Positions 36,388 through 60,240 of a stretch of DNA of 64,000 nucleotides are shown here, piece by piece; position 1 is the stretch's first letter, and every line of letters begins with the position of its first letter. A program made the translations under genes and the position numbers. The notes beneath the pieces were generated by a model, which was given only the letters and a program-made list of their open reading frames with translations, did not search any database and was not told the origin of the DNA. The DNA lies in assembly GCA_048938105.1 (NCBI GenBank), contig JBHLMN010000012.1, positions 32,001 through 96,000 of the forward strand, in the 5' to 3' direction. The stretch comes from Promethearchaeota archaeon (lineage in GTDB: Archaea; Asgardarchaeota; Heimdallarchaeia; Hodarchaeales; Hodarchaeaceae).

Positions 36388-36936
36388 GCCATTAACAGCT
36401 CTTTTATTACTAGAAAGATGAGTTGTGGATAAAGAGAAAGGACTTATTAATCCAATAAGAATTAATAGAAAAACTAATTATAAAATTGGGTGGTATTACT
36501 GCCTATAGATGGAATTGCTGGAAGTATATTCGACATTTCAATTCCTATTATCACAATAAATGCCACTAGTACTCCATATGTTCAAAATGACATCGGATTA
36601 ATTTCTTTCTTTCCCTTGAACACTCCAGGGTTTAATATGGATCTTCTAACAGGTGGTGAAATTCCAATCACAAAAATTCTTGTGTTTCCAATTACTCCTC
36701 GAGTTTGTATACATTTTTGTACAATTAAAACTGTAAATAAATGGGTAAAAAAAACCAAAAGTTAGCGGAAGGGGACTCATCTTAAGATCATCTGAGGAAC
36801 AAAATATTGAACTCACAAATCCATTATTACTAAAGTTTGTTGAAAAATTCGTCTATTCTAATCAAGAAATAGATAAAAATTTATTTTTGAAATAACTAAG
36901 GAAAAGCGAATAACTTTGAGAGCCATATAAATTTCA

Positions 36937-36964
36937 ATCTTATCAATCCAGCCTTTATCGACCA
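36937..36964 (+). repeat. 28-bp dif-like site, copy 9
   Basis: ATCTTATCAAT-CCAGCC-TTTATCGACCA. Confidence 0.7.
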
Positions 36965-37218
36965 ATCTAAAAATTGTCTAGACAAAGTATTAATTCTTTC
37001 ATTCTGTCTTTTTGGCTTTTTAGAGATTACATTAGCATCTATAATTTAATAATTAACTTCTACAACTATTCAAAACTGTTTTTAATAGCATTAGGATGTT
37101 TTATCCATCAATAACTTCATTGATACATTATAATGTCTTTAAAGAAAATTTATTAAAAACTTATAAAATTATAAGTAAAACTTAAAAAAATCATTCATTT
37201 ACTTGTAATTGGATTTTC

Positions 37219-38271: not shown

Positions 38272-38353
38272 TGAATTACCGATTGAGTAGGATTAAAAAG
38301 TGTAATTTAAGATAGATACACTAAAATAGTACTATTAAGAAAATGTTAAGAAA

Positions 38354-39355: not shown

Positions 39356-39360
39356 TCATT

Positions 39361-42941: not shown

Positions 42942-43337
42942 TTAATCAAGATTGCTTAATGTCCTAATATAAGGAGTAATAGCCTGTTCAAATTTATTAA
43001 GATTTTCTCCTAGATTTAATAATTCTGTGAAAATCAAGCTTAAGGCGTTTCTAAATTTCTTTTCTTTTTTAGAAAGTAAAGGTTTGTCCATAATATTGAA
43101 GTAAAGATTTAGAAATTCTTTTAAGATTTCATTATATACTACCTCGCCTTCAAAAGATTTGTACTGAGTTTTATATTCATTTATCAAAATTTCAAGTATC
43201 TTTAGCTGATTCTGTTGCTTCCTTTCCCGACGTGATTTCCAAATCTCATAAAGAACCCCAATAAGAGGGGGAATAGTCCCTAAATTAATAACTGAAGTAC
43301 TTATCCAAAAAATGTCTTGACTCATCAAAATCACCAA
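42942..43337 (-). CDS. Small hypothetical protein with N-terminal hydrophobic helix
   Basis: 131-aa ORF; TM-like segment followed by basic KSRRERK. Confidence 0.55.
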   Translation of the reverse strand: MVILMSQDIFWISTSVINLGTIPPLIGVLYEIWKSRRERKQQNQLKILEILINEYKTQYKSFEGEVVYNEILKEFLNLYFNIMDKPLLSKKEKKFRNALSLIFTELLNLGENLNKFEQAITPYIRTLSNLD

Positions 43338-43466: not shown

Positions 43467-45593
43467 ATGTTTTTAATGACAATAAAGATTGGAGACCTAA
43501 ATAGTGAGATTTTAGAGCGAGTTGAAAATTACTTCAAGAATTTAAGAGGTTGGGGGTCCTTATTTGTTAAAGATCCTACTGATGCTGAATCAATTGAAGA
43601 GATAATTTCTGAATATGAAGAATTAGAAAAGAAATTTGTGAATTTCTACGGGGATGCTTTGAAAAATCTTAATGGTTTCAGTAATATGTTGTTATGGGGA
43701 AGAAGGGGAACTGGAAAGTCCACATATCTCACAAAAGCGTTTTTTCAACAAATTTACCAATTTAAAGGAAGAAAAAGAAATGTCCCCATTTTTATAGACT
43801 GTAATTTGTTGTTTAAAGAGGATTTAGAGGAGAATCTTCTGAATATCTCATATTTTTATGCAGGTTTAAAATCTCAGATTGTAAAATCATTATTGTTGTT
43901 CCAAAAAATCCTTCATCATTTTAATAAAAAGAATTTAGTAAGTTTAGATGAAGATGAATTAAGTTGTATCAAATTCAAAGGACCAGAGTTTGAAACTGAA
44001 GATTTCAGTGAAGATTTGGCTAGGAATAAGTATGATTTATTTCTTGAGAAATATTCTCAACAGCTCTATAACAACATTCAGAAAGAACAACCAATGAATT
44101 TTGATAGTATCCTGACCTTTCTTGTTGAACTCAAAAGACAATGGCAAGTACATGGTTTTATTTTCTATATAGATGAAGTTTCTGAATTCTTTATAGCTAA
44201 AGGGCATTTTAAAGAAAGTGTTCGAAATTATTTTTTAGATTTCATATCTAGGGCCATTTTGAATTACAGCAGTTTGATGGTTTTCAAGCTAGTTTTATAT
44301 CAAGAGGCTGATTTTGAGTACCTTCAACGAGGTGCTCCAAAAGATGTTAGAGTTCATCGTAAATACTTTAATTCTTTTGCTGCTCTGGATTTATTTGATG
44401 AAAACAAATATTTTGGAAGAAAAATTGGAATAAAAGGAACCTCGATAAAACGACAATACGAATTGGATTTAAACAAACATATTGATGCCATCTTTAATAA
44501 GGCTTCAAATGATTGGAATCGAATCATTGCTGACTTTGAAAAGAAAGAAATTCAAAACAAAATTTATAAGTATCTTCGTGAAAGTACAGGAGGAACGATT
44601 AGAGAATTAGGTTTCATAATCTCAGAGGCAATAAAACAGTCTAAAGAAAATAAGACCAGACCGATTAATGTTACCATTCCTAATTTAAGAGCTGCTATTA
44701 TTGCTCACTATAAAAAAATCAATACTTCACTATTGACAAAAGAAATTAAATTAATGGAGGAAGTTATAAGCACGAAAAAGAAAGATAGAGACCCTAATAT
44801 ACTTTATTTTACTGATCGAATTAATAGCTCTGATTATAAGCCTCTAGATAAGAATAATGTTGAAAAAGTCTTTAAACATAATTTTTTAGCAGAATTAGAG
44901 CAAAATTTCATTATAAATATTGTTTCAATGTTAAAAACCAATGGAAATACCGAAACAATTTTTGTTTTTCATCCTGGATATGCTTTTCAAAATACTTGGC
45001 CTGATAAAGATATTGAGTTTAATAGTAACTATTTAAGGCATAATTCAATGCATATTGCACTAAATTTAAGGTATAAAAACTCATTTTCAAAGTATTTCAA
45101 GAATTATATTGAAGAAATAGAAGTGGAAGAACAATCCATAAAGAAAAAATATCTAAATATTATAAAAGAGGGTCTTCTAAAAAAAGGGGAAAGTTTAACC
45201 TCAATTGAGAGATTTATCTTTCCTAGCTTGAAGAACCAATCAATTTATGGTCTAAAACTCTTTTGTGAAGAAGTTGGTATTGCATTAACTACAGAGTCTG
45301 ATGAAGAAGTAGCAGTAGAAGTTCCAGATCTTCCGATCGAATACGATGATGAAGAGAAATGGTTCGATGCATATTTAGAACGTGCGAGAAAAAAATTAAT
45401 CAGAACTCAATATTTAAAAGATTATCTAAAAATATTAGAAATAATAAATAATAAAGAAAAGGCTACTTTCGAGGATATTGGCGATGAACTTAATATCAGT
45501 TATCCTGTAAGCCGGAGAAAATACTTTATAAATTTTTTAAAGAAGAAATCGCTGATAAAAGAAATTGATGGAATTTTTCAAATAAAACGTTAA
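43467..45593 (+). CDS. P-loop ATPase (AAA+/ORC-Cdc6-like) with C-terminal winged helix
   Basis: Walker A GRRGTGKST, Walker B FIFYIDEV, STGGTIRE, C-terminal ATFEDIGDELNIS. Confidence 0.8.
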   Translation: MFLMTIKIGDLNSEILERVENYFKNLRGWGSLFVKDPTDAESIEEIISEYEELEKKFVNFYGDALKNLNGFSNMLLWGRRGTGKSTYLTKAFFQQIYQFKGRKRNVPIFIDCNLLFKEDLEENLLNISYFYAGLKSQIVKSLLLFQKILHHFNKKNLVSLDEDELSCIKFKGPEFETEDFSEDLARNKYDLFLEKYSQQLYNNIQKEQPMNFDSILTFLVELKRQWQVHGFIFYIDEVSEFFIAKGHFKESVRNYFLDFISRAILNYSSLMVFKLVLYQEADFEYLQRGAPKDVRVHRKYFNSFAALDLFDENKYFGRKIGIKGTSIKRQYELDLNKHIDAIFNKASNDWNRIIADFEKKEIQNKIYKYLRESTGGTIRELGFIISEAIKQSKENKTRPINVTIPNLRAAIIAHYKKINTSLLTKEIKLMEEVISTKKKDRDPNILYFTDRINSSDYKPLDKNNVEKVFKHNFLAELEQNFIINIVSMLKTNGNTETIFVFHPGYAFQNTWPDKDIEFNSNYLRHNSMHIALNLRYKNSFSKYFKNYIEEIEVEEQSIKKKYLNIIKEGLLKKGESLTSIERFIFPSLKNQSIYGLKLFCEEVGIALTTESDEEVAVEVPDLPIEYDDEEKWFDAYLERARKKLIRTQYLKDYLKILEIINNKEKATFEDIGDELNISYPVSRRKYFINFLKKKSLIKEIDGIFQIKR

Positions 45594-45640
45594 AAGAACC
45601 ATTTCTACGAATTAACCAAAGCCCCTAGGAAAAAAGCAGA

Positions 45641-46141
45641 TTGGTTGGTAAGAGAATAGCAAGTGATTATTATGTCCATCGAAAATATGTAAACAAAATT
45701 CAAAAAGAATTATTTATATTATATGAATTGGCCAAACTTGAATTATCACCTGAACAAGAAAAGAGCTGGAATATTTTAAAAGTTAACAAGAGGGAAAAGA
45801 GAGTTTCATTTTTGGAGTATCCAAAGTTTGATATTGATGCCCATCCAGAGTTAAAACACAGCATAAGCGTTAATCTATCAAAGTCTCCTCCAATTATACG
45901 GATAACACGAGGACGAGGGTATATTCTTCACAGGAAGGAGTTATTTATTGATAAGGACTACCCATTATACGCTAAATTTCATGAACTCACAAAAAAAGAG
46001 GAGGAATTCGGTCTTCTAGACGCCAAAATTGTTTTTAAAGGAAAAAAATTAGGGACTTTAATGGGGAGAAAGAAAATTTGGGAAGAATGGTTATCGTACA
46101 ACAATATAAAAATCTTAGATCATGAAATTGAAGTAGAATGA
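45641..46141 (+). CDS. Stand-alone accessory domain of the DNA-phosphorothioation-associated putative methyltransferase family
   Basis: VGKR...YVH, VSFLEYPKFDIDAHPEL, ILHRKELF, LTKKEEEFGLL, WEEWL: the motif series of that family, without a SAM-binding domain. Confidence 0.7.
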   Translation: MVGKRIASDYYVHRKYVNKIQKELFILYELAKLELSPEQEKSWNILKVNKREKRVSFLEYPKFDIDAHPELKHSISVNLSKSPPIIRITRGRGYILHRKELFIDKDYPLYAKFHELTKKEEEFGLLDAKIVFKGKKLGTLMGRKKIWEEWLSYNNIKILDHEIEVE

Positions 46142-46174
46142 GATTTAGAAGGTGCCTAAAGCTTGACCTGATGG

Positions 46175-47023
46175 ATGGTGAAAAAATTAACAGATTTTCC
46201 TTGGAAGAAAGTCCTTGAAACTGCTGAAATCGATTTAATATCTTGGGAAAGAGTTAGTCCATTAATTAAACATGAAGTGTTTAAGGAATTAAATTTACAA
46301 CCAAAGAATTACATCCCAATATACTCTGAACAGGAACGACAACGAAAATTAGGAACAACTCAAAATATTTGGCCTTTTCGCACAGGAAAAGGTGAATGTG
46401 TTCTTATTCGGGGGAATATGAGTGTCAAGAATACTTACCAAAGTCCAAATACAAAACTAATATTACTCGAAGAAACATGCATTCCAAAATCATGTTCTTT
46501 GGGAAATTCTAAAACGGAGAGAGAATATTTAGCTCAAGGATTTAATTCTCGGGTATTTCATCAACTTTTAATAAATGAGAGTAAGAAAGAAGTATTTCTT
46601 GGAAGCGCTGGCAAACTATACTTGAATGCAAAAGTTCAGTATCATTCCGTTCCTATTAAGTTGAAGAATGTTCAATTTGAACTTGATTGGACTGTGGAAA
46701 CAAGAAATGAAGTTTTACATTTTGAGGCGAAATACTCACCTAAAAAACCAACACCTGAATATATTTTATTTCAAGTTTTTTATCCGACGGTTTATTTAAG
46801 CGAAAAGGTAAAGAATAAAACTATACGACCGTTTTTCCTTGATATTATAAAGGGCCATGGTTTTGTAGATTATCATTTCATGGAGATAGGATACGATGAT
46901 ACATTGAATTTATCTTCTTATAAAGTAGTACCAATCCAAAATACAACAATTCGTGTTAGCTTATCAGACCAACGGTTTCCAAACTTGATGAGTTATATAA
47001 ATACAAATCGTACAAGAAAATAA
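46175..47023 (+). CDS. PD-(D/E)xK restriction-endonuclease-like protein
   Basis: TEREYL...QFELDW...HFEAK...FQVFYP. Confidence 0.65.
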   Translation: MVKKLTDFPWKKVLETAEIDLISWERVSPLIKHEVFKELNLQPKNYIPIYSEQERQRKLGTTQNIWPFRTGKGECVLIRGNMSVKNTYQSPNTKLILLEETCIPKSCSLGNSKTEREYLAQGFNSRVFHQLLINESKKEVFLGSAGKLYLNAKVQYHSVPIKLKNVQFELDWTVETRNEVLHFEAKYSPKKPTPEYILFQVFYPTVYLSEKVKNKTIRPFFLDIIKGHGFVDYHFMEIGYDDTLNLSSYKVVPIQNTTIRVSLSDQRFPNLMSYINTNRTRK

Positions 47024-47455
47024 ATTTCCAAAGGGAAGATAAATAGTTATGTGGCCTTACAACAGTAATTTGTACTACAGTTGAGAATGGGTTTCTAAGT
47101 TATTTTAATTTTCCTTTAAGAAAAATTAATGAGTTTAAAATGAAAATAGATCATCAGATATTAAGTATTATAAGATTTCATAAAAATAAGCAAAAATAAC
47201 TTTATTATGAACATGATCAGCTACCTTTCAAATCGATTATAAATAAGATAGGTAAAATCTAGGTTAGAGATATGATGGAGAGTTTTTTAGCTTGAATGAA
47301 AAAATTTACAAATACTTACATTCCTCAGGGATTCACTTACTTATGAAGATCCTGGGATACATGAAAAACTTGAATAGTCATTTCAGTCTATATTGAGACT
47401 CAATAGATTATTTCGGGAAATTGAAAGAAAATAAAAAAAACCACTGTGATCATTT

Positions 47456-47791
47456 ATGGATTCCATTTTTGTATTAATCAATTTTATAGAAAACGAAAAC
47501 AGAAAAAAAGAATTACTATATCTCGTTGGAGCCCACAAAGAGGCAATAATAGAATTAGATGTAAAATTAACTGGTATGCAGAAAGAAAGAAGCAAAGATT
47601 TCAAACCCTGGTTAATTGTAAAAAATAACACTCGGGGAATCTATTTAATAAATAAAATAATGAAGAAATTTGATCCCTGGGTTTCACTCTGGAAACAGAC
47701 TCCAATTTATCCTCATCAAATCCCAAAAGAAATAGTGGAGGTTGAAAGATGGGATCAAAACCTAGAAGAAAAGATGTTAAAAATAATGTAG
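47456..47791 (+). CDS. Hypothetical protein
   Basis: 111-aa ORF heading the SMC/PAPS-reductase operon. Confidence 0.5.
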   Translation: MDSIFVLINFIENENRKKELLYLVGAHKEAIIELDVKLTGMQKERSKDFKPWLIVKNNTRGIYLINKIMKKFDPWVSLWKQTPIYPHQIPKEIVEVERWDQNLEEKMLKIM

Positions 47792-47910
47792 ACAAGCAAA
47801 TTGAGAAACTTATCCACAAAGATGTTTTTAAAATTCTAAAACAAGGAACCAAAGCTTCAGAAAAAGAAGCAGAAAACAAAATAGATAACTTCATAAGAAG
47901 CTTGGATTAG
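47749..47910 (+). CDS. Small 53-aa charged protein directly before the SMC-like ATPase (not in the ORF track)
   Basis: GGAGGT SD 7 nt before ATG; MGSKPRRKDVKNNVDKQIEKLIHKDVFKILKQGTKASEKEAENKIDNFIRSLD; stop 9 bp before the next ATG. Confidence 0.6.
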   Translation: MGSKPRRKDVKNNVDKQIEKLIHKDVFKILKQGTKASEKEAENKIDNFIRSLD

Positions 47911-47919
47911 GGAATCTTT

Positions 47920-49812
47920 ATGGATGACTGGGAGTTAACTGTTGAAAATATCGGGTGCTTTGTTGGAAAACATTCTTTTCTTTTTAAACAAGGTACAAAT
48001 GTGGTTATTGGGCCTAATGCTATAGGGAAGACGAGTTTGTTGCATGCATTCCAATTATTAATACCTCTGGATTCAAACATCATAGATACGAACATTTTGA
48101 ATTCTTCGTCAATGATTGGACATGTTCGCTTACAAAATGGTAATGATTGTTTTTTTATTGATATAGGGAGACGATCAGACGGTACTGTATGTGTTACCAG
48201 AAAAAAGAAGTTATTAACTGCGAACGAATTTGCTAAACAAGTTATTTTCTTAACAGAAAGCCACGAAATAATGGAAGCGGTGATAAAAGGAGATTTTAGT
48301 ATTTTAAAGGACTGGTTTGTGAGAATAACAGATTTAAACCTTTACCAAAAGGCTTATGGAGCTTGTATGAGGTTAGATTCTCGTTATAGAGACCAAAAAG
48401 ATCAGGAATCAAAACAAATACTAAAAGAGAAACATCGCTTACGCCAAGAACAGAAAAATATGCTTTCTGAAATTCGCAAAAAAAAATCAGTATTCAAAAA
48501 ATATCAGCTTGCATCAATTGCAAAAGAATTTGATTCTGAGCTTGTAACTAAATTTAGAAAGATTTCCTCCGAATTAGAAAGAATAAATAATGAATTGAAC
48601 AAATTAAAATTGGATAAAAATGTCTTAAAGACTCAACTCCCAAAGCTAACAAAGGATAAAGAAAATTTTCAATTAAAACTTTCAAAAATAGGAGAGAATT
48701 TTGAATCTGCAAAAGATCATGTTCAATATCACAATAATGAACTACAAAAGATTGACAGTGAAATTAAGCAGAAAAAATCTGTCCTTAATAAGATAAATAG
48801 AGAAATTTCACGATGTGATATTCTTATTTCGAATTTTATAAACACATTGGATGAAAATATAATCGAATGTTTGCACTGTGGTTCTGTGATATCGCAAATA
48901 CAATTAACCCAAAAACTAAGAACTATAGAAGATGAAAAAATTCATTTTGCAGAACAAAAATTAGAATTAACCAATTCAATATCTGAATTCCTAAATAATA
49001 GAAAAAAACATGAAGAACAACTTCAGGATATTAAAGTAGGACTTCCCAAAGAAGAAAAGGAACTTAGAAAGAAAATCGAAAGCACAAAAAACAAAATAAA
49101 TCGGCAAAAAAAGAAATTAACCGAACTCCAGAAAAGAATAGCGAGTAAAAATGAAGCATTAGACGAAATACAACTTATCTTTGAAAGTCTTCAGGGTCAA
49201 GTGCTGGAAAAATCCGAAAAGAAAAGCGAAATAGAACGCATGGAAAACGAATTACAAGGCGAACTCAAACATATGGAGAAGAGCTTAAGTAGGATCCAAA
49301 GTGACTTAACAAGAACAGAAACCCAGCTTTTAATGCTTAAAACATTTGATATAAAAAGAAAAAATCTGAAAAAAGTAATATATTTTGTCCAAAAAGGCAT
49401 TAAATCAATCCAAGAAAATATCTTGGACAAGATTAACTATCATCTTAACCAAATAATCACTGAATTGGATATACCATTTTTATCATCAATTAAGCTCGAT
49501 GATGATTTCAATCTGAAAATTGTTAGGAAAACAGGGGTACTTGGAGAATTTAGAGAACTTTCTGGTCTTGAAAAAAGATTAATTGCGATTCTTGTTGGTT
49601 TTTCAATAAAAAATGCACTCCTACAAGACTTTCCATTCTTTATTATTGATGAGACATTATATTCTGCAGATGATGAAAGTTTCGAGCAGATTATAAATTA
49701 TATTGGGCAAAATATAGATCTTTTGATTGTAACCCGATTAGGTACAAATCCAGATATTCAAAAGGGCGTATTGAATCAACAGAATATAGTTTATATGGAG
49801 AATGTGGCATGA
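47920..49812 (+). CDS. Rad50/SMC-like ABC ATPase with coiled coil and zinc hook (DndD-analogous)
   Basis: Walker A GPNAIGKTS, central CLHCG, signature LSGLEK, Walker B FIIDE. Confidence 0.9.
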   Translation: MDDWELTVENIGCFVGKHSFLFKQGTNVVIGPNAIGKTSLLHAFQLLIPLDSNIIDTNILNSSSMIGHVRLQNGNDCFFIDIGRRSDGTVCVTRKKKLLTANEFAKQVIFLTESHEIMEAVIKGDFSILKDWFVRITDLNLYQKAYGACMRLDSRYRDQKDQESKQILKEKHRLRQEQKNMLSEIRKKKSVFKKYQLASIAKEFDSELVTKFRKISSELERINNELNKLKLDKNVLKTQLPKLTKDKENFQLKLSKIGENFESAKDHVQYHNNELQKIDSEIKQKKSVLNKINREISRCDILISNFINTLDENIIECLHCGSVISQIQLTQKLRTIEDEKIHFAEQKLELTNSISEFLNNRKKHEEQLQDIKVGLPKEEKELRKKIESTKNKINRQKKKLTELQKRIASKNEALDEIQLIFESLQGQVLEKSEKKSEIERMENELQGELKHMEKSLSRIQSDLTRTETQLLMLKTFDIKRKNLKKVIYFVQKGIKSIQENILDKINYHLNQIITELDIPFLSSIKLDDDFNLKIVRKTGVLGEFRELSGLEKRLIAILVGFSIKNALLQDFPFFIIDETLYSADDESFEQIINYIGQNIDLLIVTRLGTNPDIQKGVLNQQNIVYMENVA

Positions 49813-51677
49813 GTCCTTTCAAATGGTGTTTAAATTGTCATATTCCACTCATTCAAAGTAAATGTGGGAATTCAAGACCTATACCCCATAAAGTAGTAGA
49901 TTTCATTTCTCGAGTGAAACCTGTTGGTAAAAAAGAGTATCAAATGTATAAAGCCCTTTTTGTTAACAATTCTGATACTGAAAGTGAATATACGATAGAG
50001 GATGAATCTAAGAAGGATAGAGCGAAACGTTTTCCCAAGATTCTTTATCGAAGTAGAAATCTACTATATTCTGAAATGTCAGAAGGAACACCTCATTTTA
50101 AGATATTATTACAGAGAGAAAATGATATTGATAATTGGGGATTAACTAATCGGAATATTATACTTCATGATAATAAAAATTACTTTAAAAGGTCCGAATA
50201 CAAAAAAATTAATGAATACTTCTGGACCGATCCTGAATATCGGAAGAAATTAATTGAAGGAAACAAAGAACGACTTGTGAAACTAGAGGAAAAGGCGCTT
50301 AAATTTATTCGTTGGGTTTACAAAAAAAAGAAAGAATCTAAGGTTTTTGTTTCTTTTAGCGGAGGTAAAGACAGCGCGGTAACTGCATATCTAACAAATA
50401 AAGCATTGTACAAAGAATTAGGTAGTGTTCCATTACTTTTTTCAAATACTGATATTGAATACCAAGAAACTGTGGACTATGTAAGAAAAAGAGATCTTGG
50501 TGAGGTTATAGAAGTAAAATCAAAGAATAAATTTCTTGATTTATGTGAAAAATTAGGTCCTCCAAGTCGCACTATGCGATGGTGTTGTTCAACACAAAAA
50601 GCATCACCAGTTAATCAATATTACTCGACAATAAAGAGTGAAATTTTAAGTTTTGACGGTATAAGAAGAGAAGAATCAAATTTAAGAGCTGAATATCCTC
50701 GACACCATCAGAATACGAAGCTACAACGCCAATATAGTGCTTATCCTATTTTAGATTGGTCTGAAATAGAGGTTTGGTTATTTACGCTTTGGCGTAATAT
50801 CCCTCTAAATCCCCTATATGATGAAGGTTTTGCTAGAATCGGATGTTGGGCTTGTCCAAATAACGGTCTATTTGATACATTTCTTTTCGAAAAAATTAAA
50901 CCCGAAATGGCTGATTATTGGTTTAAGAAGCTACGAACTTTCTCAGAGTCAATTTCTAATGAATACGATCACAAATATAAACATGATTGGATTTATCAAG
51001 GAAAATGGAAAGGACGGCGTGTAAAATATCATAATGAGTTAATTGGGGAAATTTCCCAACAAGATTCAAGCTTTGAGAACTTTGATATTGTTGATCCTGC
51101 AGAGGCAATATCAAAATATGATGAATTTCATGATGAAAATTCATTTGAGAATGAATCTAAGCCATGCAGCCAGACCAGTGTAATGGTTGTTTCATTGGAT
51201 CGCCCCTTAAAAGAAGACTCATTCGAATTTCTTAAAATTTTTGGGGATTCTAAACGTATTCTAATTGGAAATCAAACTTTGGTCAAGATAGAAGGACAAA
51301 AATATTCAATTCAGTATGTTGAAAATTCTAACAAAATTAAATATAAAATCCTAGAAAAAGAGAAGAATGAAAGAAACATATTACGTAATAGATTGATTCG
51401 TCAAATAAATAAATCTTTCAATTGTATTAAATGTGCCTCATGTGTTGGTCTTTGTCCTAAAGGAGCGATTAGTGTTATAGTTAACAGATACCAAGTAGAT
51501 TCAAGCAAATGCATTAATTGTTTAAAATGCACTTCGAGCAATCTGCTGAGTATGGGTTGTGTAGCCCTTCATTATAAACCTGATAGACTTTTAGTTGATC
51601 GAAATGTCACGAAACCGTCTTTAAAAGTGAGACATGATTCAGAAATGGTTACTGAATCTCAATTACTTACTACATAG
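49809..51677 (+). CDS. PAPS-reductase-family protein with C-terminal 4Fe-4S ferredoxin (DndC/SspD-analogous)
   Basis: PP-loop SFSGGKDS, RWCC, GIRREES, RIGCWAC, CIKCASCVGLCP...CINCLKC. Confidence 0.9.
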   Translation: MSPFKWCLNCHIPLIQSKCGNSRPIPHKVVDFISRVKPVGKKEYQMYKALFVNNSDTESEYTIEDESKKDRAKRFPKILYRSRNLLYSEMSEGTPHFKILLQRENDIDNWGLTNRNIILHDNKNYFKRSEYKKINEYFWTDPEYRKKLIEGNKERLVKLEEKALKFIRWVYKKKKESKVFVSFSGGKDSAVTAYLTNKALYKELGSVPLLFSNTDIEYQETVDYVRKRDLGEVIEVKSKNKFLDLCEKLGPPSRTMRWCCSTQKASPVNQYYSTIKSEILSFDGIRREESNLRAEYPRHHQNTKLQRQYSAYPILDWSEIEVWLFTLWRNIPLNPLYDEGFARIGCWACPNNGLFDTFLFEKIKPEMADYWFKKLRTFSESISNEYDHKYKHDWIYQGKWKGRRVKYHNELIGEISQQDSSFENFDIVDPAEAISKYDEFHDENSFENESKPCSQTSVMVVSLDRPLKEDSFEFLKIFGDSKRILIGNQTLVKIEGQKYSIQYVENSNKIKYKILEKEKNERNILRNRLIRQINKSFNCIKCASCVGLCPKGAISVIVNRYQVDSSKCINCLKCTSSNLLSMGCVALHYKPDRLLVDRNVTKPSLKVRHDSEMVTESQLLTT

Positions 51678-51685
51678 ATTTAAGT

Positions 51686-53884: not shown

Positions 53885-53889
53885 CAATT

Positions 53890-55125
53890 GTGGTAAATAT
53901 GGATCCATATGAATTTAGAAATTCTATTCCTCTTCTACGAAACAATCCAGATATCGTCTATTTAGATTCAGCTACAACTACATTAATTCCTGATACTGTA
54001 ATACAACGAATGAAAGAATTTTATGAAGAAATTGGGGTCATTCCAAATCGTGGAGCTTATGATTTAGTACTTCAATCAAATAAGACTTTAAATAAGGTAC
54101 GAAATAGTGTCTCGAATTTTTTTAATGTTGATTTTAATAGAATCGCCTTCACAACGAGTACTTCACATGGTTCTGCAACAGCGATCGCTGTTACAAACCT
54201 TACAAAGAAAGATAGAGTTTTATTTGCATCAAATTTACACAATTCGTCATTTTTAAATTGGTTTAGATTTGTACAAAAGAACTCAATAAATTTTGACTTC
54301 ATTAAATTGAATAAAGATGGTCAAGTCTTAATAGATGATTTAGAAGATAAAATTTCTCTGAAGATTCCCGGTAGAACAATAGTAGTTTTAGATCATGCAC
54401 CAATGGGTTTTGGTACGTTATTAAATTTAAATGTTGCATCAGAGGTAATACATAACACAAAAGATTCATATCTTTTTCTTGATGCTACTAGAACAGCTGG
54501 CTTAGTAGATTTAGATATATCAAGAGAAAATATTGATTATCTTGTCTGTCAAAGCCATGTGGGATTCTTTGCTCCTCCTGGAACAGGGATACTTATCGTT
54601 CCAGAGGAAGTTAATGGTGAACCATGTTATATAGGTTCAGGATCTGTAATTGACACTTCTAAAGAGTACTATCATTTATCCCCCTATCCTAATAGTGTTG
54701 AAATTGATAGTGTTAATATTGGAGGTTTAGTTGGATTAGAAGCTGGTATAAAATTGCTTAATGAAATTGGGATAAATGAAATCAGAAATCATTGTATGAA
54801 ATTAATCGAAATCTTCTGTAAAAATGTAGAAATGAGTGATGATATTCTTTTATTTGGATCATCTGATCCTTTAAGTCGGTCAAATTTACTTAGCATTAAA
54901 TTTAAAAATATAAGCTGTCATGACCTTGCCTTTTATGTTCATGAATTGGGAAAAATTTGTGTTCGATCTGGAAGTCTTTGTAGTCATCTACTTATTAGAG
55001 AAATTAATTCTAATATTAATAATGGATTTACACAATTCTCATTTAACTATTATAATACGGAGTTGGATTTAAAAAAAGCAATTGAAATTCTCAACTCAAT
55101 AAATATGAAAAAAAAAGAATTATAA
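53890..55125 (+). CDS. Cysteine desulfurase-like (class V aminotransferase, SufS/DndA-like)
   Basis: YLDSATTT, NRGAY, FTTSTS, LDAT, RSGSLCSH (catalytic Cys). The PLP Lys position reads SHVG. Confidence 0.85.
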   Translation: MVNMDPYEFRNSIPLLRNNPDIVYLDSATTTLIPDTVIQRMKEFYEEIGVIPNRGAYDLVLQSNKTLNKVRNSVSNFFNVDFNRIAFTTSTSHGSATAIAVTNLTKKDRVLFASNLHNSSFLNWFRFVQKNSINFDFIKLNKDGQVLIDDLEDKISLKIPGRTIVVLDHAPMGFGTLLNLNVASEVIHNTKDSYLFLDATRTAGLVDLDISRENIDYLVCQSHVGFFAPPGTGILIVPEEVNGEPCYIGSGSVIDTSKEYYHLSPYPNSVEIDSVNIGGLVGLEAGIKLLNEIGINEIRNHCMKLIEIFCKNVEMSDDILLFGSSDPLSRSNLLSIKFKNISCHDLAFYVHELGKICVRSGSLCSHLLIREINSNINNGFTQFSFNYYNTELDLKKAIEILNSINMKKKEL

Positions 55126-55136
55126 TGTGAAACTCT

Positions 55137-57335
55137 TCATAATTTCATAAGGAGATTGTTAATATCAAATAATTCTTTCATTAATTCATGCTTGTTTTCT
55201 GCATAATCTGCGAAGAAAGTAATTCTTTGATTTTCAATTCTAATTATGTTTTTTGCTAGTCTTGGATGTCTTTCCATTTGATTTGAATTTGGTAGGACTA
55301 TTATATCATAGATTACAACTGGTTCTTCCTTTTTTTTGTTTTTTCTTAGTATTCTACCAGCTCTTTGAATATGTTCTAATGCGGATCCTGAGCTTGCCAT
55401 AAAGATTGCTTTTTCCAAACATGGTATGTCTACGCCTTGGTCTAGGCATTTCATTGCAATTAGTGTATTTATATCTTTATTTGCTAAATTGTTAATATAG
55501 ATTTGCCTTTCTTTGTTATCCATGTTACCATCAATCAGATTAAAACTAATTTTAAACTGTTTTTGTGAATACAATTCCATAATAACGCTTCTTACATCTC
55601 GTGTAATATGCTCTTTATCTCTACAATATATTACACATTTCTCGAACTCTTTCTTATTGATTAAGTCAAGTATGATCGATTTTAAAACTTTTCTTTTGTG
55701 CTTACATTTTTTTATTATATCTGCTCTTTGATTGAGTAATATGGTTCTATAATCCTCTCTTGCTATGCCCCTAATTTTACTTATTTGTGTTGATAAATCT
55801 TCATATTGTTTGATATCATTATCGTCAAAATAACATTTGAAAATTTTGTACTCAAATTTACAGACAACGCCAAGCTCTTGAGCATCTTTCAGCGTTAGTT
55901 CATACAGATCCCTATTTTCATTAAGAAACCAATCAAGTATTTTTAGAGTTCCTTCCTCATCAAAATGTCTTTGAGGAGTAGCACTAAGACCAATTTTATA
56001 GTCGGGGTTAAAATTTTCCATTAAAAATATTCCTGTAGGTGTTCCAAGGCTATGTGCTTCGTCGGCAATAAATAAAACCCTTGATCTCTTGCTTAATCCT
56101 TTTTTATTAATAACCTCTCTATTTAAAATCTCGGGTTTAAGCGATTTGTATGTTCCAACTATATAGCAGTGATCTTGCTCTAATAGCAGTATTTTATCTA
56201 TGTGATTCCGTAGTTCTTTCTTCCAAGTAGGGTTCTCATGGTAGCATTTGATAACATATTTCGAATATCTATTTAATTCTTTATACCATTGATCAACTAA
56301 ATATCTATCAGGAACCCCAATAATAGTTATAAGTTTTAATCCTTCTTTCTTAAGTTTTAAATATAAATTATAACTAGCAAAAATCGATGTTTTAGTTTTT
56401 CCTGTTCCTGTTGCCATTGCAAGAAATCCAATGAACTTATTCTTATCCAAGTGATCCAATGCATCTCTTTGAGGTTCCCATGGTTTATCTTTCTCGATGT
56501 TGGGTATTAATAACCCTTCAGTGAAATTCCAAGTAGAATTCTTGCTAAATTCCTCAAACAATTTGTAAAAAGAAGTGGTTTTTATGTGTTCATTAAAAAC
56601 GTGATCAAAATGAGAAAAATTTATTTTATTTAAATCTTTAGGTTTGTATTTTGAGATAATATAATCTTTTAATCCTTTGGGAAAAGAAGAAACTTTAAGA
56701 CATGAATCTTTGTTATCCCAATATAATTGAAATTTCTCAAAATCCAATTGTGCATATTTTTTTGTATCATCCCAACTTCTAAACGTTTTTATTTCTTCAC
56801 GATTTTGTGACCAAGCCATATAAGTCATGTTTGAAGAACCTGAAAACGAAATATAATCTTGACCATCACTCAAAATCCCAATCTTTTCGTGTAAAATCCT
56901 CTCGAATAATAATTCCGATATTTTTTCTTCTGTACTAAATACTGGAATTGCAAATTTGATTTCTATTCTATTATAGTACAATAACCAGGCTAATAATTTA
57001 TAATGTTCATCTAGATCAGACCTTAAATTTATTTGATTAAGAAAATCCTCCTTGAGGATCTCTTCAAAATTCTCTGCTAACTCATTTCTTGCCATTAAAA
57101 GTAAATTTAATTCCTGATTTCTTGGAACTCCAATGATGATTTTTATTTTTCCATTATTTTTTTGGATAAAATTATACAATCCGTAAAATAATGGAATAAA
57201 AATCTTTGCTGAAAAATATCCAGTAATATACCAAAATTTTTTTGATTCATTGAGTACAGGTACTAAAAATTCATCAAAAAGGTTATCCCAACCCGTTGTA
57301 TAACTAATTTTGAGTTCCAAGTCCCTTAAAGGCAA
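55137..57335 (-). CDS. pbeA: PLD + SF2 (DEAH) helicase, phosphorothioation-associated restriction component (PbeA-like)
   Basis: TGYFS, LHEKIGILSD...GSSNMT; MATGTGKT, DEAH, GLSATP, LDQGVDIP, QRAGRILR. Confidence 0.8.
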   Translation of the reverse strand: MPLRDLELKISYTTGWDNLFDEFLVPVLNESKKFWYITGYFSAKIFIPLFYGLYNFIQKNNGKIKIIIGVPRNQELNLLLMARNELAENFEEILKEDFLNQINLRSDLDEHYKLLAWLLYYNRIEIKFAIPVFSTEEKISELLFERILHEKIGILSDGQDYISFSGSSNMTYMAWSQNREEIKTFRSWDDTKKYAQLDFEKFQLYWDNKDSCLKVSSFPKGLKDYIISKYKPKDLNKINFSHFDHVFNEHIKTTSFYKLFEEFSKNSTWNFTEGLLIPNIEKDKPWEPQRDALDHLDKNKFIGFLAMATGTGKTKTSIFASYNLYLKLKKEGLKLITIIGVPDRYLVDQWYKELNRYSKYVIKCYHENPTWKKELRNHIDKILLLEQDHCYIVGTYKSLKPEILNREVINKKGLSKRSRVLFIADEAHSLGTPTGIFLMENFNPDYKIGLSATPQRHFDEEGTLKILDWFLNENRDLYELTLKDAQELGVVCKFEYKIFKCYFDDNDIKQYEDLSTQISKIRGIAREDYRTILLNQRADIIKKCKHKRKVLKSIILDLINKKEFEKCVIYCRDKEHITRDVRSVIMELYSQKQFKISFNLIDGNMDNKERQIYINNLANKDINTLIAMKCLDQGVDIPCLEKAIFMASSGSALEHIQRAGRILRKNKKKEEPVVIYDIIVLPNSNQMERHPRLAKNIIRIENQRITFFADYAENKHELMKELFDINNLLMKL

Positions 57336-57370
57336 TTTAATTCTTCCTATTCAGAGAATAAGGGCATTGA

Positions 57371-57898
57371 TTATTGTTTCTCTTTAATATCATCTTTTAT
57401 TTCGTCTTCCCACTCAATAAGGTTAAAATCTTCGAGTAACTCCGAGTCTGGTGCATCAGCAAGACATATTAATTTAAAATTCCTTTCTCGTGGTAAATTC
57501 CATCCTCCCTTGAAATATTCTTCTGCAATTCGTGAGCATTCACTAAGATCCAACAAAATTTTGTGAATATAATCTCGTTTTTCTTCATTTCTCCCAATTT
57601 CATCCAACATATGACCATAAGCAATTGTTTTTAATATAAAGCCCACTTCTTCACGATCTGATAGTGATGGTACGTTAACGGAATCAGTTTTTTCACGTTT
57701 ACTCCTAGGTAATTCTTTAGGTGATCTACCATTTGCGAATGAGCGAGTAACGCCAATTATAAATCCATCTATTAACCTATTTTTGAAGGAACATTGTTGA
57801 TATCTCTTTTTTTTATCTTTAATCTCTTTTAATATGTCATTAGCCTCAATTTCTAAGTATATATTCCTGTATAAAGTCTGTTTTTCCTTTTTTGACAT
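57371..57898 (-). CDS. Phosphorothioation-associated small protein (dnd-associated protein 4 / PbeD-like)
   Basis: C-terminal IAEEYFKGG resembling the EEYANGG motif; position after the SMC-like ATPase. Confidence 0.6.
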   Translation of the reverse strand: MSKKEKQTLYRNIYLEIEANDILKEIKDKKKRYQQCSFKNRLIDGFIIGVTRSFANGRSPKELPRSKREKTDSVNVPSLSDREEVGFILKTIAYGHMLDEIGRNEEKRDYIHKILLDLSECSRIAEEYFKGGWNLPRERNFKLICLADAPDSELLEDFNLIEWEDEIKDDIKEKQ

Positions 57899-57899
57899 G

Positions 57900-59990: not shown

Positions 59991-59994
59991 AGCG

Positions 59995-60240
59995 TTAGCT
60001 TCCTACTCCGTGTTTGATTTTACTCATCTTTTCTATTATTTGGTTATACATATGATCGATTTTTTGTTTTTTTGCTTTATTTTCCTCATAAGGCCATTCT
60101 TTTTCAAAATAAATAAATTCAAATAGCTCATTGAAGAAATTAAATGGATCACCTATTTCTTTTTTAACATCTTCAGGAATTACTTTCTCCCAAGTTGATT
60201 TATACTCATTTAATAGAGTTTTAAAATTAATTTTCTTCAT
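59995..60240 (-). CDS. Small protein heading the pbe-like operon (PbeB-like by position)
   Basis: 81 aa, GGGGAAG SD, 4 bp before the ATPase gene. Confidence 0.55.
   Translation of the reverse strand: MKKINFKTLLNEYKSTWEKVIPEDVKKEIGDPFNFFNELFEFIYFEKEWPYEENKAKKQKIDHMYNQIIEKMSKIKHGVGS

What the first reader, a model, noticed from the sequence alone, without database searches (positions are those of the whole stretch)
43467..60240. Atypical phosphorothioation-like locus: non-canonical modification arm converging on a pbe-like arm
Seen: on the + strand, ATPase, PT-associated domain, nuclease, two small ORFs, Rad50-like ATPase, PAPS-reductase-ferredoxin, MTase fusion and desulfurase-like gene. On the - strand, small protein, DndD/PbeC-like ATPase, PbeD-like protein and PLD-helicase; the two arms end 11 bp apart. 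Established: archaeal dndCDEA-pbeABCD is a PT-based antiviral system. Here no recognisable dndB/dndE or sspB is present, the DndC role would fall to a ferredoxin-fused PAPS reductase, and pbeA is last instead of first. Inference: a new PT-type or other sulfur-based DNA modification variant.
Basis: partly seen in the sequence, partly recalled or inferred. Interest (0 to 1): 0.7.

Follow-up and report, generated by a model that had tools for sequence, protein, structure and literature searches.

The report
Archaeal sulfur DNA-marking defence locus, new layout
A sediment archaeon (probably Asgard) carries a known virus-blocking gene set (Pbe) facing a rare, undescribed gene set that most likely puts sulfur marks on the cell's own DNA backbone, so this looks like a fifth genetic layout for making such marks.

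Summary
All the genes named are present, and the two arms end 11 bp apart.

**Minus arm.** It is a Pbe module in the order B-C-D-A (PbeA 5e-150, PbeC 1e-41 with a CxC hook).

**Plus arm.** It is two operons.
- The conserved core is s1-s2-D-E: two tiny proteins, a Rad50/ASRP-like ABC ATPase with an invariant CxxC hook, and a PAPS-reductase-type PP-loop enzyme with a zinc ribbon and a ferredoxin tail.
- E belongs to the SspD/BrxP lineage. Its bacterial relatives sit in SspD-B-C-A loci, 37 of 79 with PbeA.
- The core recurs in seven loci. It lies next to Pbe genes in three of them (colinear in L113); an eighth, truncated locus (L111) has E converging on PbeA. Once it lies next to SspC/BrxC-like, PglZ and weakly DUF4007-like genes.

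**Accessories specific to this clade.**
- F is a decayed TIM barrel, a TehB-like methyltransferase and a TFIIB core.
- G is SufS-like. It has lost the PLP lysine but keeps the persulfide cysteine.
- A (ORC/Cdc6-like) and B (dnd-associated methyltransferase C-domain) form a separate conserved operon. C is dispensable.

**Best reading (0.6).** This is a new phosphorothioation-type writer paired with Pbe. The chemistry is untested.

The scan noted this stretch before, in the same genome only.

The parts
42942..43337 (-). up131: small protein with an N-terminal hydrophobic helix, divergent from A
   Evidence: 62% identical homologue in the same position in L112. No family match. Role unknown.
43467..45593 (+). 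A: 708-aa P-loop ATPase, ORC/Cdc6-like AAA+ with a probable C-terminal winged helix
   Evidence: Walker A GRRGTGKS. Weak DUF815 hit. Weak CasR-like hit at residues 609-700. Atlas structure neighbours are ORC-CDC6-like clusters, TM 0.50-0.55; this is a lead only. 65% homologue in L112, absent from L091.
45641..46141 (+). B: stand-alone copy of the C-terminal domain of the dnd-associated putative methyltransferase family (TIGR04096)
   Evidence: TIGR04096 positions 323-475, E 4e-22, below the cut-off because only this domain is present. Fused to the C-terminus of ~662-aa cyanobacterial proteins of that name. Conserved beside the writer operon in L091 (58%) and L112 (63%).
46175..47023 (+). C: DUF6996/DUF6997 protein, possible restriction-type endonuclease; dispensable
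   Evidence: Pfam DUF6997, 1e-15. Atlas neighbours are labelled endonuclease or type II restriction enzyme. Absent from L112. Only a 49-residue remnant in L091.
47456..47791 (+). s1: 111-aa core partner protein with a ferredoxin/ACT-like beta-alpha-beta-beta-alpha-beta fold
   Evidence: Present upstream of D in 6 of the 7 core loci, twice as a tandem fusion. L113 is cut at its start. AlphaFold pLDDT 70. Best structural matches Z 8-9, generic; not ribbon-helix-helix. Only 12 representatives among 1.84 billion.
47749..47910 (+). s2: 53-aa lysine-rich helical protein that overlaps the end of s1
   Evidence: An ORF of 53-61 aa lies in the same position in L091, L112, L114, L115 and L120. No family match.
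47920..49812 (+). D: Rad50/ASRP-like coiled-coil ABC ATPase with a CxxC zinc hook
   Evidence: NCBIfam ASRP 1.9e-72 (245 bits, cut-off 300). PADLOC LmuB 5e-13, PbeC 6e-9, DndD 3e-8. Walker A, signature, Walker B and C317/C320 are invariant in 6 homologues. Directly upstream of E in all 7 core loci, mostly with a 4-bp overlap.
49809..51677 (+). E: putative writer. N-terminal zinc ribbon, PP-loop PAPS-reductase-type domain, C-terminal 2x[4Fe-4S] ferredoxin
   Evidence: PAPS_reduct 1.7e-34 plus Fer4 models. PADLOC BrxP 9e-68, SspD 8e-12, DndC 6e-9. SGGKDS, RWCC, GCxxCP and eight ferredoxin cysteines are invariant in 17 homologues. Forms its own clade within the Ssp/BrxP lineage.
51686..53884 (+). 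F: three-domain fusion. Decayed xylose-isomerase/EndoIV-like TIM barrel (about 8-287), TehB-like SAM methyltransferase (about 300-495), TFIIB/TFB core (about 552-725)
   Evidence: Pfam Methyltransf_25/31/12/11 and TehB. Model pLDDT 75. TehB Z 18.4. TIM-barrel matches Z 15-16. TFIIB core E 2e-14 with the family profile. TFB genes of 13 phylum genomes hit residues about 590-725. Only 8 homologues in 5.8 billion proteins. No DPPY or PCQ motif.
53890..55125 (+). G: SufS/SspA-like protein without the PLP lysine but with the persulfide cysteine
   Evidence: Aminotran_5 4e-61. SspA 9e-27, DndA 1e-26. Lys is replaced by Val here and by Thr in the L112 orthologue, while Cys364 is kept. An intact SufS-like gene lies elsewhere in the genome.
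55137..57335 (-). H: PbeA, HKD/PLD nuclease-like domain fused to an SF2 helicase
   Evidence: PADLOC PbeA 5.3e-150. TIGR04095 3.9e-84. PLDc_2, ResIII, Helicase_C. HxK...D...GSSN motif at 149-171.
57371..57898 (-). I: PbeD-position protein (175 aa)
   Evidence: Lies between PbeC and PbeA. 34% homologue in the same position in L113. No HMM or PDB match. Its equivalence to the DndE cognate rests on position and on PMC10853773.
57900..59990 (-). J: PbeC, CxC-type coiled-coil ABC ATPase
   Evidence: PADLOC PbeC 1.1e-41. TIGR03185 DndD 1.8e-18, below cut-off. CVC at residue 366 in mid coiled coil.
59995..60240 (-). K: PbeB-position small protein (81 aa)
   Evidence: First gene of the minus-strand operon. 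31% match to the 76-aa ORF in front of PbeC in L113. No family match.

Best explanation
The locus is a two-part self/non-self defence element in a sediment archaeon that is probably Asgard.

**Writer (plus-strand operon s1-s2-D-E-F-G).** It marks the host's own DNA, most likely by replacing a backbone oxygen with sulfur (phosphorothioation).
- E, a PP-loop ATP pyrophosphatase of the SspD/BrxP lineage with Fe-S clusters, would activate the phosphate and insert the sulfur.
- D, a Rad50/ASRP-like ABC ATPase with a zinc hook, together with the small proteins s1 and s2, would hold and scan the DNA. This is the role of DndD-DndE in Dnd systems and of the ORC-type SspC/BrxC with SspB in Ssp and BREX type 4 systems.
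- G, which lacks the PLP lysine but keeps the persulfide cysteine, would relay sulfur from a housekeeping desulfurase.
- F (TehB-like methyltransferase with a TFB core) is a clade-specific accessory that may target or further process the mark.

**Reader (minus-strand pbeB-C-D-A operon).** It would block replication of DNA that lacks the mark, as shown for DndCDEA-PbeABCD in haloarchaea.

**A and B.** They form a conserved side operon of unknown role, possibly regulatory or target-recognising.

**Shown here:** gene content, motifs, folds, family placement and conserved linkage.
**Inferred:** the chemistry of the mark, the roles of D, s1, s2, F and G, and the dependence of Pbe on the mark.
For: **Family placement of E.**
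- E scores BrxP 9e-68, far above SspD 8e-12 and DndC 6e-9.
- It keeps the PP-loop and all the cluster cysteines.
- BrxP with BrxC is shown to make phosphorothioate (PMC12914056).
- Bacterial relatives of E lie in SspD-SspB-SspC-SspA loci. Of 79 loci, 75 have SspB, 68 SspC, 60 SspA and 37 PbeA.
- In a tree rooted on the housekeeping paralogues, the E proteins with s1/D neighbours form one clade (SH-aLRT 92) beside the bacterial Ssp clade.

**The core is conserved.** s1-s2-D-E recurs in seven loci: the window, L091, L112, L113, L114, L115 and L120. D and E mostly overlap by 4 bp.

**Linkage to effector genes.**
- Window: convergent with Pbe, 11 bp apart.
- L113: D-E-PbeB-C-D-A colinear, without F or G.
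- L114: E, then an HNH gene, then PbeA.
- L111: E convergent with PbeA, 51% identical to H.
- L115: the core diverges from DUF4007-like, SspC/BrxC-like (9e-21) and PglZ (1e-10) genes.

**Not housekeeping.** The defence-type E occurs in 3 of 399 phylum genomes and F in 2 of 399. The roughly 670-aa paralogue found in 52 of 60 relatives has no D, F or G beside it.

**Pbe identity.** PbeA 5e-150; PbeC 1e-41 with a CxC hook. Pbe activity depends on phosphorothioate in haloarchaea (PMC6459918).

**Setting.** The locus lies in a defence island.
Against: - There is no chemical or genetic evidence for any mark in this organism.
- E's lineage also contains members in non-defence contexts: the type II neighbourhood and the housekeeping paralogue. 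The fold alone therefore does not prove DNA phosphorothioation.
- No DndE or SspB-type DNA-recognition protein is recognisable. s1 has a generic ferredoxin-like fold.
- G lacks the catalytic lysine.
- F is not a recognisable DNA methyltransferase, and its role is unexplained.
- PbeAC modules are often found without dndCD and may pair with other marks (PMC6459918, PMC10853773).
- D's best PADLOC match is Lamassu LmuB, 5e-13.
- The tree used a quick search, and canonical DndC and Vibrio SspD were not included.
Confidence: 0.6

Rival explanations
1. The writer makes a different or further-processed mark. One option is a phosphorothioate that the TehB-like methyltransferase F then S-methylates. 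Another is a different sulfur or methyl adduct, placed at sites chosen through F's TFB-core DNA/TBP-binding domain. Pbe would read that mark.
For: - F's methyltransferase domain is closest to TehB, a chalcogen methyltransferase (Z 18.4, Foldseek 2.5e-10). Thiol S-methyltransferases are among the matches.
- F lacks DNA base-methyltransferase motifs.
- SAM motif I is invariant in all 8 homologues.
- F is fused to a full TFIIB core, E 2e-14.
- B, a domain otherwise fused to dnd-associated methyltransferases, is conserved next to the operon.
Against: - F and G are missing from L113, L114, L115 and L120. E lies next to Pbe genes in L113 and L114 without them.
- Similarity to TehB is at the level of the general class I fold, 17-21% identity.
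- S-alkylated phosphorothioates are chemically labile (general chemistry, not tested here).
Confidence: 0.12
2. s1-s2-D-E is not a modification module. It is a Lamassu-like sensor-effector system: the SMC-like D, with small partners, senses foreign DNA and switches on E as an ATP-consuming or otherwise toxic effector. Its place next to Pbe reflects defence-island clustering.
For: - D's best PADLOC match is LmuB (5e-13). L115's D also matches LmuB.
- The layout of small proteins, an SMC-like ATPase and an enzyme resembles Lamassu.
- PP-loop enzymes hydrolyse ATP to AMP and PPi (established for the family).
Against: - E keeps the zinc ribbon and the ferredoxin clusters, and it groups with the SspD/BrxP writers.
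- Linkage to Pbe or BREX-like reader genes recurs in five independent contigs, once colinear in a single operon-like row.
- A desulfurase-like gene is attached in two loci.
Confidence: 0.1
3. The two arms are unrelated neighbours. Pbe works alone or with a mark made elsewhere in the genome, and the plus arm serves a cellular sulfur, tRNA or cofactor pathway.
For: - Most relatives carry a housekeeping paralogue of E (52 of 60 genomes).
- A second conserved non-defence neighbourhood (type II) exists for E-like proteins.
- Many PbeAC modules are solitary (PMC6459918).
Against: - The housekeeping paralogue has no D, F or G beside it.
- The defence-type clade is rare and patchy, 3 of 399 genomes.
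- It is linked to Pbe in four loci.
- D is a DNA-type SMC/Rad50-like ATPase.
Confidence: 0.08
4. Pbe here reads base methylation laid down by F, and E, D and G are unrelated to the mark.
For: PbeAC modules often have methyltransferases nearby instead of dndCD (PMC6459918, PMC10853773). F is a SAM methyltransferase with intact motif I.
Against: - F has no DNA base-methyltransferase motifs and resembles small-molecule methyltransferases.
- The related loci L113, L114 and L111 have E next to Pbe without F.
Confidence: 0.05

Closest known systems
DndCDEA-PbeABCD of haloarchaea (Xiong et al. 2019, PMC6459918; re-annotated as the CxC ABC ATPase system in PMC10853773)
   Same: - All four Pbe positions are filled: HKD-helicase PbeA, small PbeB, CxC-hook ABC ATPase PbeC and a PbeD-sized protein.
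- A sulfur-insertion-type writer operon lies next to it.
- The writer has a PP-loop enzyme, a coiled-coil ABC ATPase, small partner proteins and a desulfurase-like gene, which parallels DndC, DndD, DndE and DndA.
   Different: - The writer proteins are not Dnd orthologues. E is of the SspD/BrxP type (DndC model 33 bits against a cut-off of 290).
- D is ASRP/Rad50-like with a CxxC hook, not DndD.
- s1 has a ferredoxin-like fold, not the ribbon-helix-helix fold of DndE.
- G lacks the PLP lysine.
- The Pbe order is B-C-D-A, and the two operons converge.
SspABCD phosphorothioation systems, including the bacterial SspD-B-C-A plus PbeA/PbeC loci found here
   Same: - E shares the zinc ribbon, PP-loop and C-terminal cysteine-rich architecture, at about 30% identity, with the SspD proteins of these loci.
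- A SufS/SspA-like gene follows.
- Pbe genes are frequent neighbours (37 of 79 loci).
   Different: - No SspB (DUF4007) and no SspC (ORC-type, about 1200 aa) is present in the window.
- Their places are taken by D, s1, s2 and F.
- The archaeal E proteins form their own clade.
BREX type 4 (brxP-brxC-pglZ-brxL), shown to make phosphorothioate (PMC12914056)
   Same: E's strongest defence-library match is BrxP (9e-68). One related locus (L115) has SspC/BrxC-like and PglZ genes, and a weakly DUF4007-like gene, beside s1-s2-D-E.
   Different: - E matches only the PAPS-reductase part of BrxP (profile positions 100-367 of 779) and lacks the fused DUF4007 domain.
- There is no BrxC, PglZ or BrxL in the window.
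Archaea-specific SMC-related proteins (ASRP; ClsN, Sph1/2; PMC9389158)
   Same: D has the ASRP layout: N-terminal Walker A, a coiled coil with a zinc hook, and C-terminal signature and Walker B motifs. It matches the ASRP model over its full length (1.9e-72).
   Different: - The score is below the curated cut-off (245 against 300 bits).
- D is encoded in a defence operon translationally coupled to a PP-loop enzyme, not as a chromosome-organising gene.
- The ASRP paper reports no shared gene neighbourhood for the family.
TIGR04096 'DNA phosphorothioation-associated putative methyltransferase'
   Same: B is homologous to its C-terminal domain, and a methyltransferase (F) is encoded nearby. The same two functions are therefore present in the locus.
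   Different: F's methyltransferase domain is not specifically related to the N-terminal part of that family: hhalign probability 19%, motif I only, and the model finds only B in the genome. This is a functional parallel, not a split gene.

Membership tests
PbeABCD / CxC ABC ATPase system | PbeA: HKD (PLD-type) domain fused to an SF2 helicase | tested here: met
   PADLOC PbeA 5.3e-150 over the full length. PLDc_2, ResIII, Helicase_C. TIGR04095 3.9e-84. HxK...D...GSSN motif.
PbeABCD / CxC ABC ATPase system | PbeC: coiled-coil ABC ATPase with a CxC zinc hook at the apex | tested here: met
   PADLOC PbeC 1.1e-41 over the full length. Walker A at 42-49. CVC at 366 of 696.
PbeABCD / CxC ABC ATPase system | PbeD: DndE cognate with two ribbon-helix-helix repeats, next to PbeC | tested here: inconclusive
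   A 175-aa gene lies in the right place and is conserved in L113 (34%). It has no HMM or PDB sequence match.
PbeABCD / CxC ABC ATPase system | PbeB: small, fast-evolving protein in the operon | tested here: met
   The 81-aa first gene of the operon. It has a weak (31%) counterpart in front of PbeC in L113.
PbeABCD / CxC ABC ATPase system | Phosphorothioate-dependent block of virus replication | not testable with these tools
   Needs infection assays.
DndABCDE | DndC (TIGR03183) sulfurtransferase | tested here: not met
   E scores 33 bits against a cut-off of 290, over a short stretch only. The PADLOC DndC matches (6e-9, 1e-8) cover only part of E.
DndABCDE | DndD-DndE obligate pair (DndD-clade ABC ATPase plus a two-RHH protein) | tested here: not met
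   D has only a partial DndD match (3e-8) and a CxxC hook. It matches ASRP far better. The s1 model is ferredoxin-like, not RHH. No DndE or DndB match in the locus.
SspABCD | SspD-type PAPS-reductase-like ATP pyrophosphatase | tested here: met
   - PADLOC SspD 8e-12 on the PP-loop core.
- About 30% identity over residues 6-589 to the SspD proteins of bacterial SspD-B-C-A loci.
- Same superclade in the tree, but a separate archaeal clade.
SspABCD | SspB (DUF4007) and SspC (ORC-type ATPase, about 1000-1200 aa) | tested here: not met
   No DUF4007 or SspC/BrxC match among the window's proteins. A is ORC/Cdc6-like only by an atlas lead and does not match the SspC models.
SspABCD | SspA cysteine desulfurase with PLP lysine and catalytic cysteine | tested here: not met
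   G matches SspA at 9e-27. The lysine is Val (Thr in the L112 orthologue). The cysteine is kept.
BREX type 4 | BrxP (PAPS reductase fused to DUF4007) with BrxC, PglZ and BrxL | tested here: not met
   E matches only positions 100-367 of the 779-position BrxP model. No BrxC, PglZ or BrxL in the window. The related locus L115 does have SspC/BrxC-like and PglZ genes, and a weakly DUF4007-like gene (E 1.6e-4, below the Pfam cut-off).
ASRP (NF045487) | Score above the curated cut-off; Walker A, zinc hook and Walker B layout | tested here: inconclusive
   245 bits against a cut-off of 300, but the alignment is full length and the layout is conserved.
Lamassu | LmuB SMC-like ATPase with an LmuA effector and an LmuC partner | tested here: inconclusive
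   D matches LmuB models at 5e-13, more weakly than it matches ASRP. No LmuA or LmuC match.

The most novel reading that the evidence does not exclude
The locus may write a DNA mark that is not plain phosphorothioate. One possibility is a phosphorothioate that the TehB-like methyltransferase F then S-methylates. Another is a mark placed at promoter-type sites that F's TFB core selects together with TBP. Either would be a new backbone chemistry, or a new way of choosing 'self' sites, in an archaeon related to the ancestors of eukaryotes.
Probability: 0.1. Interest if true: 0.9.

Novelty: new variant of a known kind. Interest (0 to 1): 0.62.

Why it matters
The literature available here lists four gene sets known to make phosphorothioate DNA: Dnd, Ssp, Tdp and BREX type 4 (PMC12914056). 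This locus suggests a fifth layout. An SspD/BrxP-type writer works with a Rad50/SMC-like zinc-hook ATPase and two new small proteins, instead of the ORC-type SspC/BrxC with SspB, or DndD with DndE.

What it offers:
- It shows that the same writer enzyme can be coupled to two unrelated kinds of DNA-handling motor, and that Pbe readers pair with Ssp-type writers as well as Dnd writers.
- It gives a compact core, s1-s2-D-E, to test in a heterologous host.
- It raises two side questions: what a desulfurase-like protein without its lysine does, and why a methyltransferase is fused to a transcription-factor core.
- It extends phosphorothioate-type defence to what are probably Asgard archaea. The one Asgard defence survey that I read (PMC13700489) does not mention it.

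Tried and rejected
The contexts of most metagenomic E homologues (P0006-P0039) could not be read. Contexts came from the search for related loci and the genome search instead.
- **s1 as a DndE homologue: rejected.** The model is beta-alpha-beta-beta-alpha-beta, and its best matches are generic ferredoxin/ACT-like domains at Z 8-9.
- **'TIGR04096 split into B and F': not supported as homology.** The model finds only B in the genome. A full-length family member aligns to F only at SAM motif I, probability 19%.
TGT was not among the listed structural matches. Those listed were xylose-isomerase, EndoIV and tagatose-epimerase-type TIM barrels. Two homologues carry PF01261. The domain was not folded alone.
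- **PDB sequence searches** with I, C and A found nothing.
- **Iterated searches for PbeD and PbeB** in the fetched loci found only L113.
- **PADLOC mad2/mad3 (MADS) matches** of F and D, about 1e-8, cover generic methyltransferase and ABC domains. They were not pursued.
- **RNA evidence:** no RNA holder was listed for the stretch.
- **A bacterial-type promoter/terminator scan** of the convergent junction found no terminator. It is not meaningful for an archaeon.
- **Literature:** the Asgard defensome paper PMC13700489 mentions none of Pbe, Dnd, Ssp, BREX or PAPS. The Tdp paper and the 2020 ABC ATPase classification are not in the library.
- **Organism name:** it could not be obtained. 'Asgard' rests on the named nearest homologues (Heimdallarchaeota and Promethearchaeota MAGs), genome size and GC content.

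Full report
**Observation**

- The plus strand carries A, B, C, s1, s2, D, E, F and G.
- The minus strand carries K, J, I and H.
- G's stop ends at 55125 and H's stop begins at 55137, so the arms are 11 bp apart.
- A 430-bp AT-rich gap (47024-47455) divides the plus arm into A-B-C and s1-s2-D-E-F-G. The second unit is tightly packed: s1 and s2 overlap, D and E overlap by 4 bp, and E-F and F-G are 8 and 5 bp apart.
- No DndB, DndE or SspB/DUF4007 match occurs in the locus.
- The window has about 30% GC. Its genome is 5.85 Mb in 65 contigs, from a sediment metagenome.
- The nearest named homologues are Heimdallarchaeota and Promethearchaeota MAGs. I therefore take the host to be an Asgard archaeon. 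This is an inference.
- The 20 kb upstream hold other defence-type genes.

**Minus arm**

- H matches PbeA models over their full length (5.3e-150). It has PLDc_2, ResIII and Helicase_C domains and an HKD-type motif.
- J matches PbeC (1.1e-41). It has CVC at residue 366, in the middle of its coiled coil. This is the CxC zinc hook that defines this ABC ATPase clade (PMC10853773).
- I (175 aa) and K (81 aa) have no family matches. They occupy the PbeD and PbeB positions, and the published PbeB and PbeD are 66 and 152 aa (PMC6459918).
- Both I and K have homologues in the same order in the metagenomic locus L113.
- The arm is therefore a Pbe module in the order B-C-D-A. L113 shares that order, so it is not a rearrangement peculiar to this genome.

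**The writer enzyme E**

- E has an N-terminal zinc ribbon, a PP-loop PAPS-reductase domain (1.7e-34) and a C-terminal two-cluster ferredoxin.
- In 17 homologues, the PP-loop SGGKDS, the RWCC and GCxxCP motifs and eight ferredoxin cysteines are invariant.
- In the defence library, E scores BrxP 9e-68, SspD 8e-12 and DndC 6e-9. Against NCBI's DndC model it scores 33 bits, with a cut-off of 290. It is not a canonical DndC.
- Eighty loci were fetched from species-representative genomes. The only close one was a Hadarchaeota MAG (35%). The other 79, nearly all bacterial, are about 30% identical to E.
- Annotation of one of them, L060, gave SspD-like, SspB (DUF4007, 5e-88), SspC (1.8e-121), SspA, PbeA (4e-253) and PbeC (5e-89).
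- Across the 79 loci, 75 have SspB, 68 SspC, 60 SspA, 37 PbeA and 30 PbeC. Many loci are cut by contig or flank ends.
- E therefore belongs to the lineage of Ssp-type writers. Those writers are commonly followed by Pbe readers.
- BrxP is described as an SspD-SspB fusion. BrxP with BrxC is shown genetically to make phosphorothioate (PMC12914056).

**Is the plus arm housekeeping?**

- Nearly all relatives (52 of 60 genomes), including this genome, carry a paralogue of about 670 aa that is 28-39% identical to E.
- Three such regions were fetched. None has a homologue of D, F, G, s1 or s2.
- The defence-type E was found in 3 of 399 genomes of the phylum. Full-length F was found in 2 of 399.
- F has 8 homologues among 5.8 billion proteins. 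The s1 family has 12 representatives among 1.84 billion.
- This distribution is rare and patchy, as expected for a defence gene set.

**Synteny**

| Locus | Source | Gene content |
|---|---|---|
| L091 | same genus, contig ends inside F | B, a remnant of C, s1, s2, D, E, F |
| L112 | 48-kb metagenome contig | up131, A, B, s1, s2, D, E, F, G, then a decayed second G copy. Identities 43-69% |
| L113 | metagenome | D, E, PbeB, PbeC (3.8e-39), PbeD, PbeA (6.6e-154), all on one strand, without F or G |
| L114 | metagenome | tandem-fused s1, s2, D, E, an HNH nuclease, then PbeA |
| L120 | metagenome | fused s1, s2, D, E |
| L111 | another family of the same class | E converging directly on a PbeA that is 51% identical to H |
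| L115 | metagenome | s1, s2, D, E, diverging from a DUF4007-like gene (weak), an SspC/BrxC-like ATPase (9.4e-21) and a PglZ gene (1.2e-10) |

- The invariant unit is s1-s2-D-E.
- It combines with different reader sets, mostly Pbe.
- F and G occur only in the window's own subclade.
- A and B accompany that subclade. C does not.

**Tree**

I built a quick maximum-likelihood tree of 77 E-family proteins, rooted on the housekeeping paralogues.

- All E proteins with an s1/D context, plus metagenomic proteins of unknown context, form one clade of 19 (SH-aLRT 92).
- That clade is sister to two longer proteins (98).
- It is separate from the bacterial Ssp-context clade (96-99).
- It is also separate from a 'type II' clade whose members lack D and share another unannotated neighbourhood.
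- Canonical DndC and Vibrio SspD were not available for the tree.

**Partners of E**

*D.*
- D matches the archaea-specific SMC-related protein model over its full length (1.9e-72, 245 bits, cut-off 300). It matches LmuB, PbeC and DndD only weakly.
- Six homologues share Walker A, the signature motif, Walker B and an invariant CxxC at 317-320. This is a Rad50/ASRP-type zinc hook (PMC9389158), unlike J's CxC.

*s1 and s2.*
- s1 is predicted, at moderate confidence (pLDDT 70), to have a ferredoxin/ACT-like fold. It has only generic structural neighbours and is not a ribbon-helix-helix protein.
- s2 is a 53-aa lysine-rich helix.

By analogy with DndD-DndE and with SspC-SspB (PMC10853773), I infer that D, s1 and s2 are the DNA-handling and site-selecting part of the writer.

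**G**

- G is clearly SufS-like (Aminotran_5 4e-61; SspA 9e-27).
- In alignments to solved desulfurases and to a bacterial SspA, the PLP lysine is Val in G and Thr in the L112 orthologue. The persulfide cysteine (RSGSLC) is kept.
- The genome has an intact SufS-like gene elsewhere, with both residues.
- G is therefore more likely a sulfur relay or scaffold than the primary desulfurase. This is an inference.

**F**

The AlphaFold model (pLDDT 75) has three domains.

- **Residues 8-287** match xylose-isomerase-type TIM barrels, including endonuclease IV (Z 15-16 over 230-270 residues).
  - Two homologues carry PF01261.
  - The His, Glu and Asp positions kept in the distant homologues P0126 and P0127 are replaced in the window's clade. 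The barrel therefore looks decayed. I judged this by eye on the alignment.
- **Residues 301-494** are closest to the tellurite methyltransferase TehB (Z 18.4; Foldseek 2.5e-10). SAM motif I is invariant, and no DNA base-methyltransferase motif is present.
- **Residues 552-723** match both cyclin repeats of the TFIIB core with the family profile (2e-14). They also hit the TFB genes of 13 genomes of the phylum.

F's role is unknown. It is absent from most loci that carry the core, so it cannot be essential to the basic mark.

**A, B and C**

- A has a Walker A motif. It resembles ORC/Cdc6-type AAA+ proteins only through atlas leads.
- B is the C-terminal domain of about 662-aa cyanobacterial 'DNA phosphorothioation-associated putative methyltransferases'.
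- F's methyltransferase is not specifically related to the N-terminal part of those proteins.
- C is a DUF6996/6997 protein whose relatives are labelled endonucleases. It is absent or decayed in the sister loci.

**Verdict**

The best reading is a phosphorothioation-type writer with a new composition, paired with a Pbe reader (confidence 0.6).

The rivals are:
- a further-processed or different mark that involves F;
- a Lamassu-like sensor-effector system;
- unrelated neighbours;
- Pbe reading methylation laid down by F.

None of these explains as well the repeated linkage of E to Pbe in loci that lack F. I found no description of this layout in the searchable literature. That library is incomplete.

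Earlier notes of this scan concern the same stretch of the same genome only.

Noticed in passing
window 22565-40176: The 20 kb upstream look like further defence genes:
- an SF1 helicase (AAA_11/AAA_12) followed by a protein with two PLD domains;
- an AAA_22 ATPase followed by a PD-(D/E)XK-HerA fusion;
- a trypsin-like peptidase;
- an HD-CE protein.

None of these was assigned to a named system.
   Followed up: no
L002-L080 (e.g. L060:9605-21318): Bacterial SspD-SspB-SspC-SspA loci are very often followed by PbeA/PbeC: 37 of the 79 fetched loci, many of them cut short. The Ssp papers I read name only SspE and SspFGH as partners, and they leave 84% of sspBCD loci without a known reader (PMC8092258).
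   Followed up: partly
L115:1-9923: In one metagenomic locus the s1-s2-D-E core diverges from a DUF4007-like gene, an SspC/BrxC-like 1379-aa ATPase and a PglZ gene. This looks like a BREX type 4-like set in which the PAPS reductase is unfused and comes with its own SMC-like ATPase.
   Followed up: partly
L116, L118, L125, L001 (e.g. L125:9074-14500): A second conserved neighbourhood exists for E-like proteins of about 520 aa that lack D. It comprises a 172-aa gene, an 84-aa HTH-like gene, E, and then genes of 229, 385 and 359 aa, with essentially no Pfam matches. Its function is unknown.
   Followed up: no
G000:C18:41852-42610 and relatives (L083-L094): Nearly all relatives (52 of 60 genomes) carry a PAPS-reductase-ferredoxin paralogue of about 670 aa, of the PRK13795 'hypothetical protein' type. 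Its function is unknown. It is the outgroup of the defence-linked lineage in the tree.
   Followed up: partly
window 51686-53884; P0126, P0127, P0128: Fusion of a methyltransferase to a TFIIB/TFB core is a tiny family of 8 proteins.
- P0128 (452 aa) lacks the TIM barrel.
- P0126 and P0127 keep the likely metal ligands of the barrel. They also have cysteine-rich inserts before the TFB core.
   Followed up: partly
L112:15392-16021: A second, decayed copy of the G-like gene, with stops and frame shifts, follows G in the sister locus. It also lacks the lysine, and its cysteine is replaced.
   Followed up: yes
L091:7191-9094: In the same-genus genome, E is split into a 573-aa ORF and an 81-aa ORF at the ferredoxin domain. 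This is either a frameshift or an assembly error.
   Followed up: no
window 42942-43337: A 131-aa protein with one hydrophobic N-terminal helix lies divergent from A. It is conserved (62%) in the same place in L112, so it may belong to the element.
   Followed up: no
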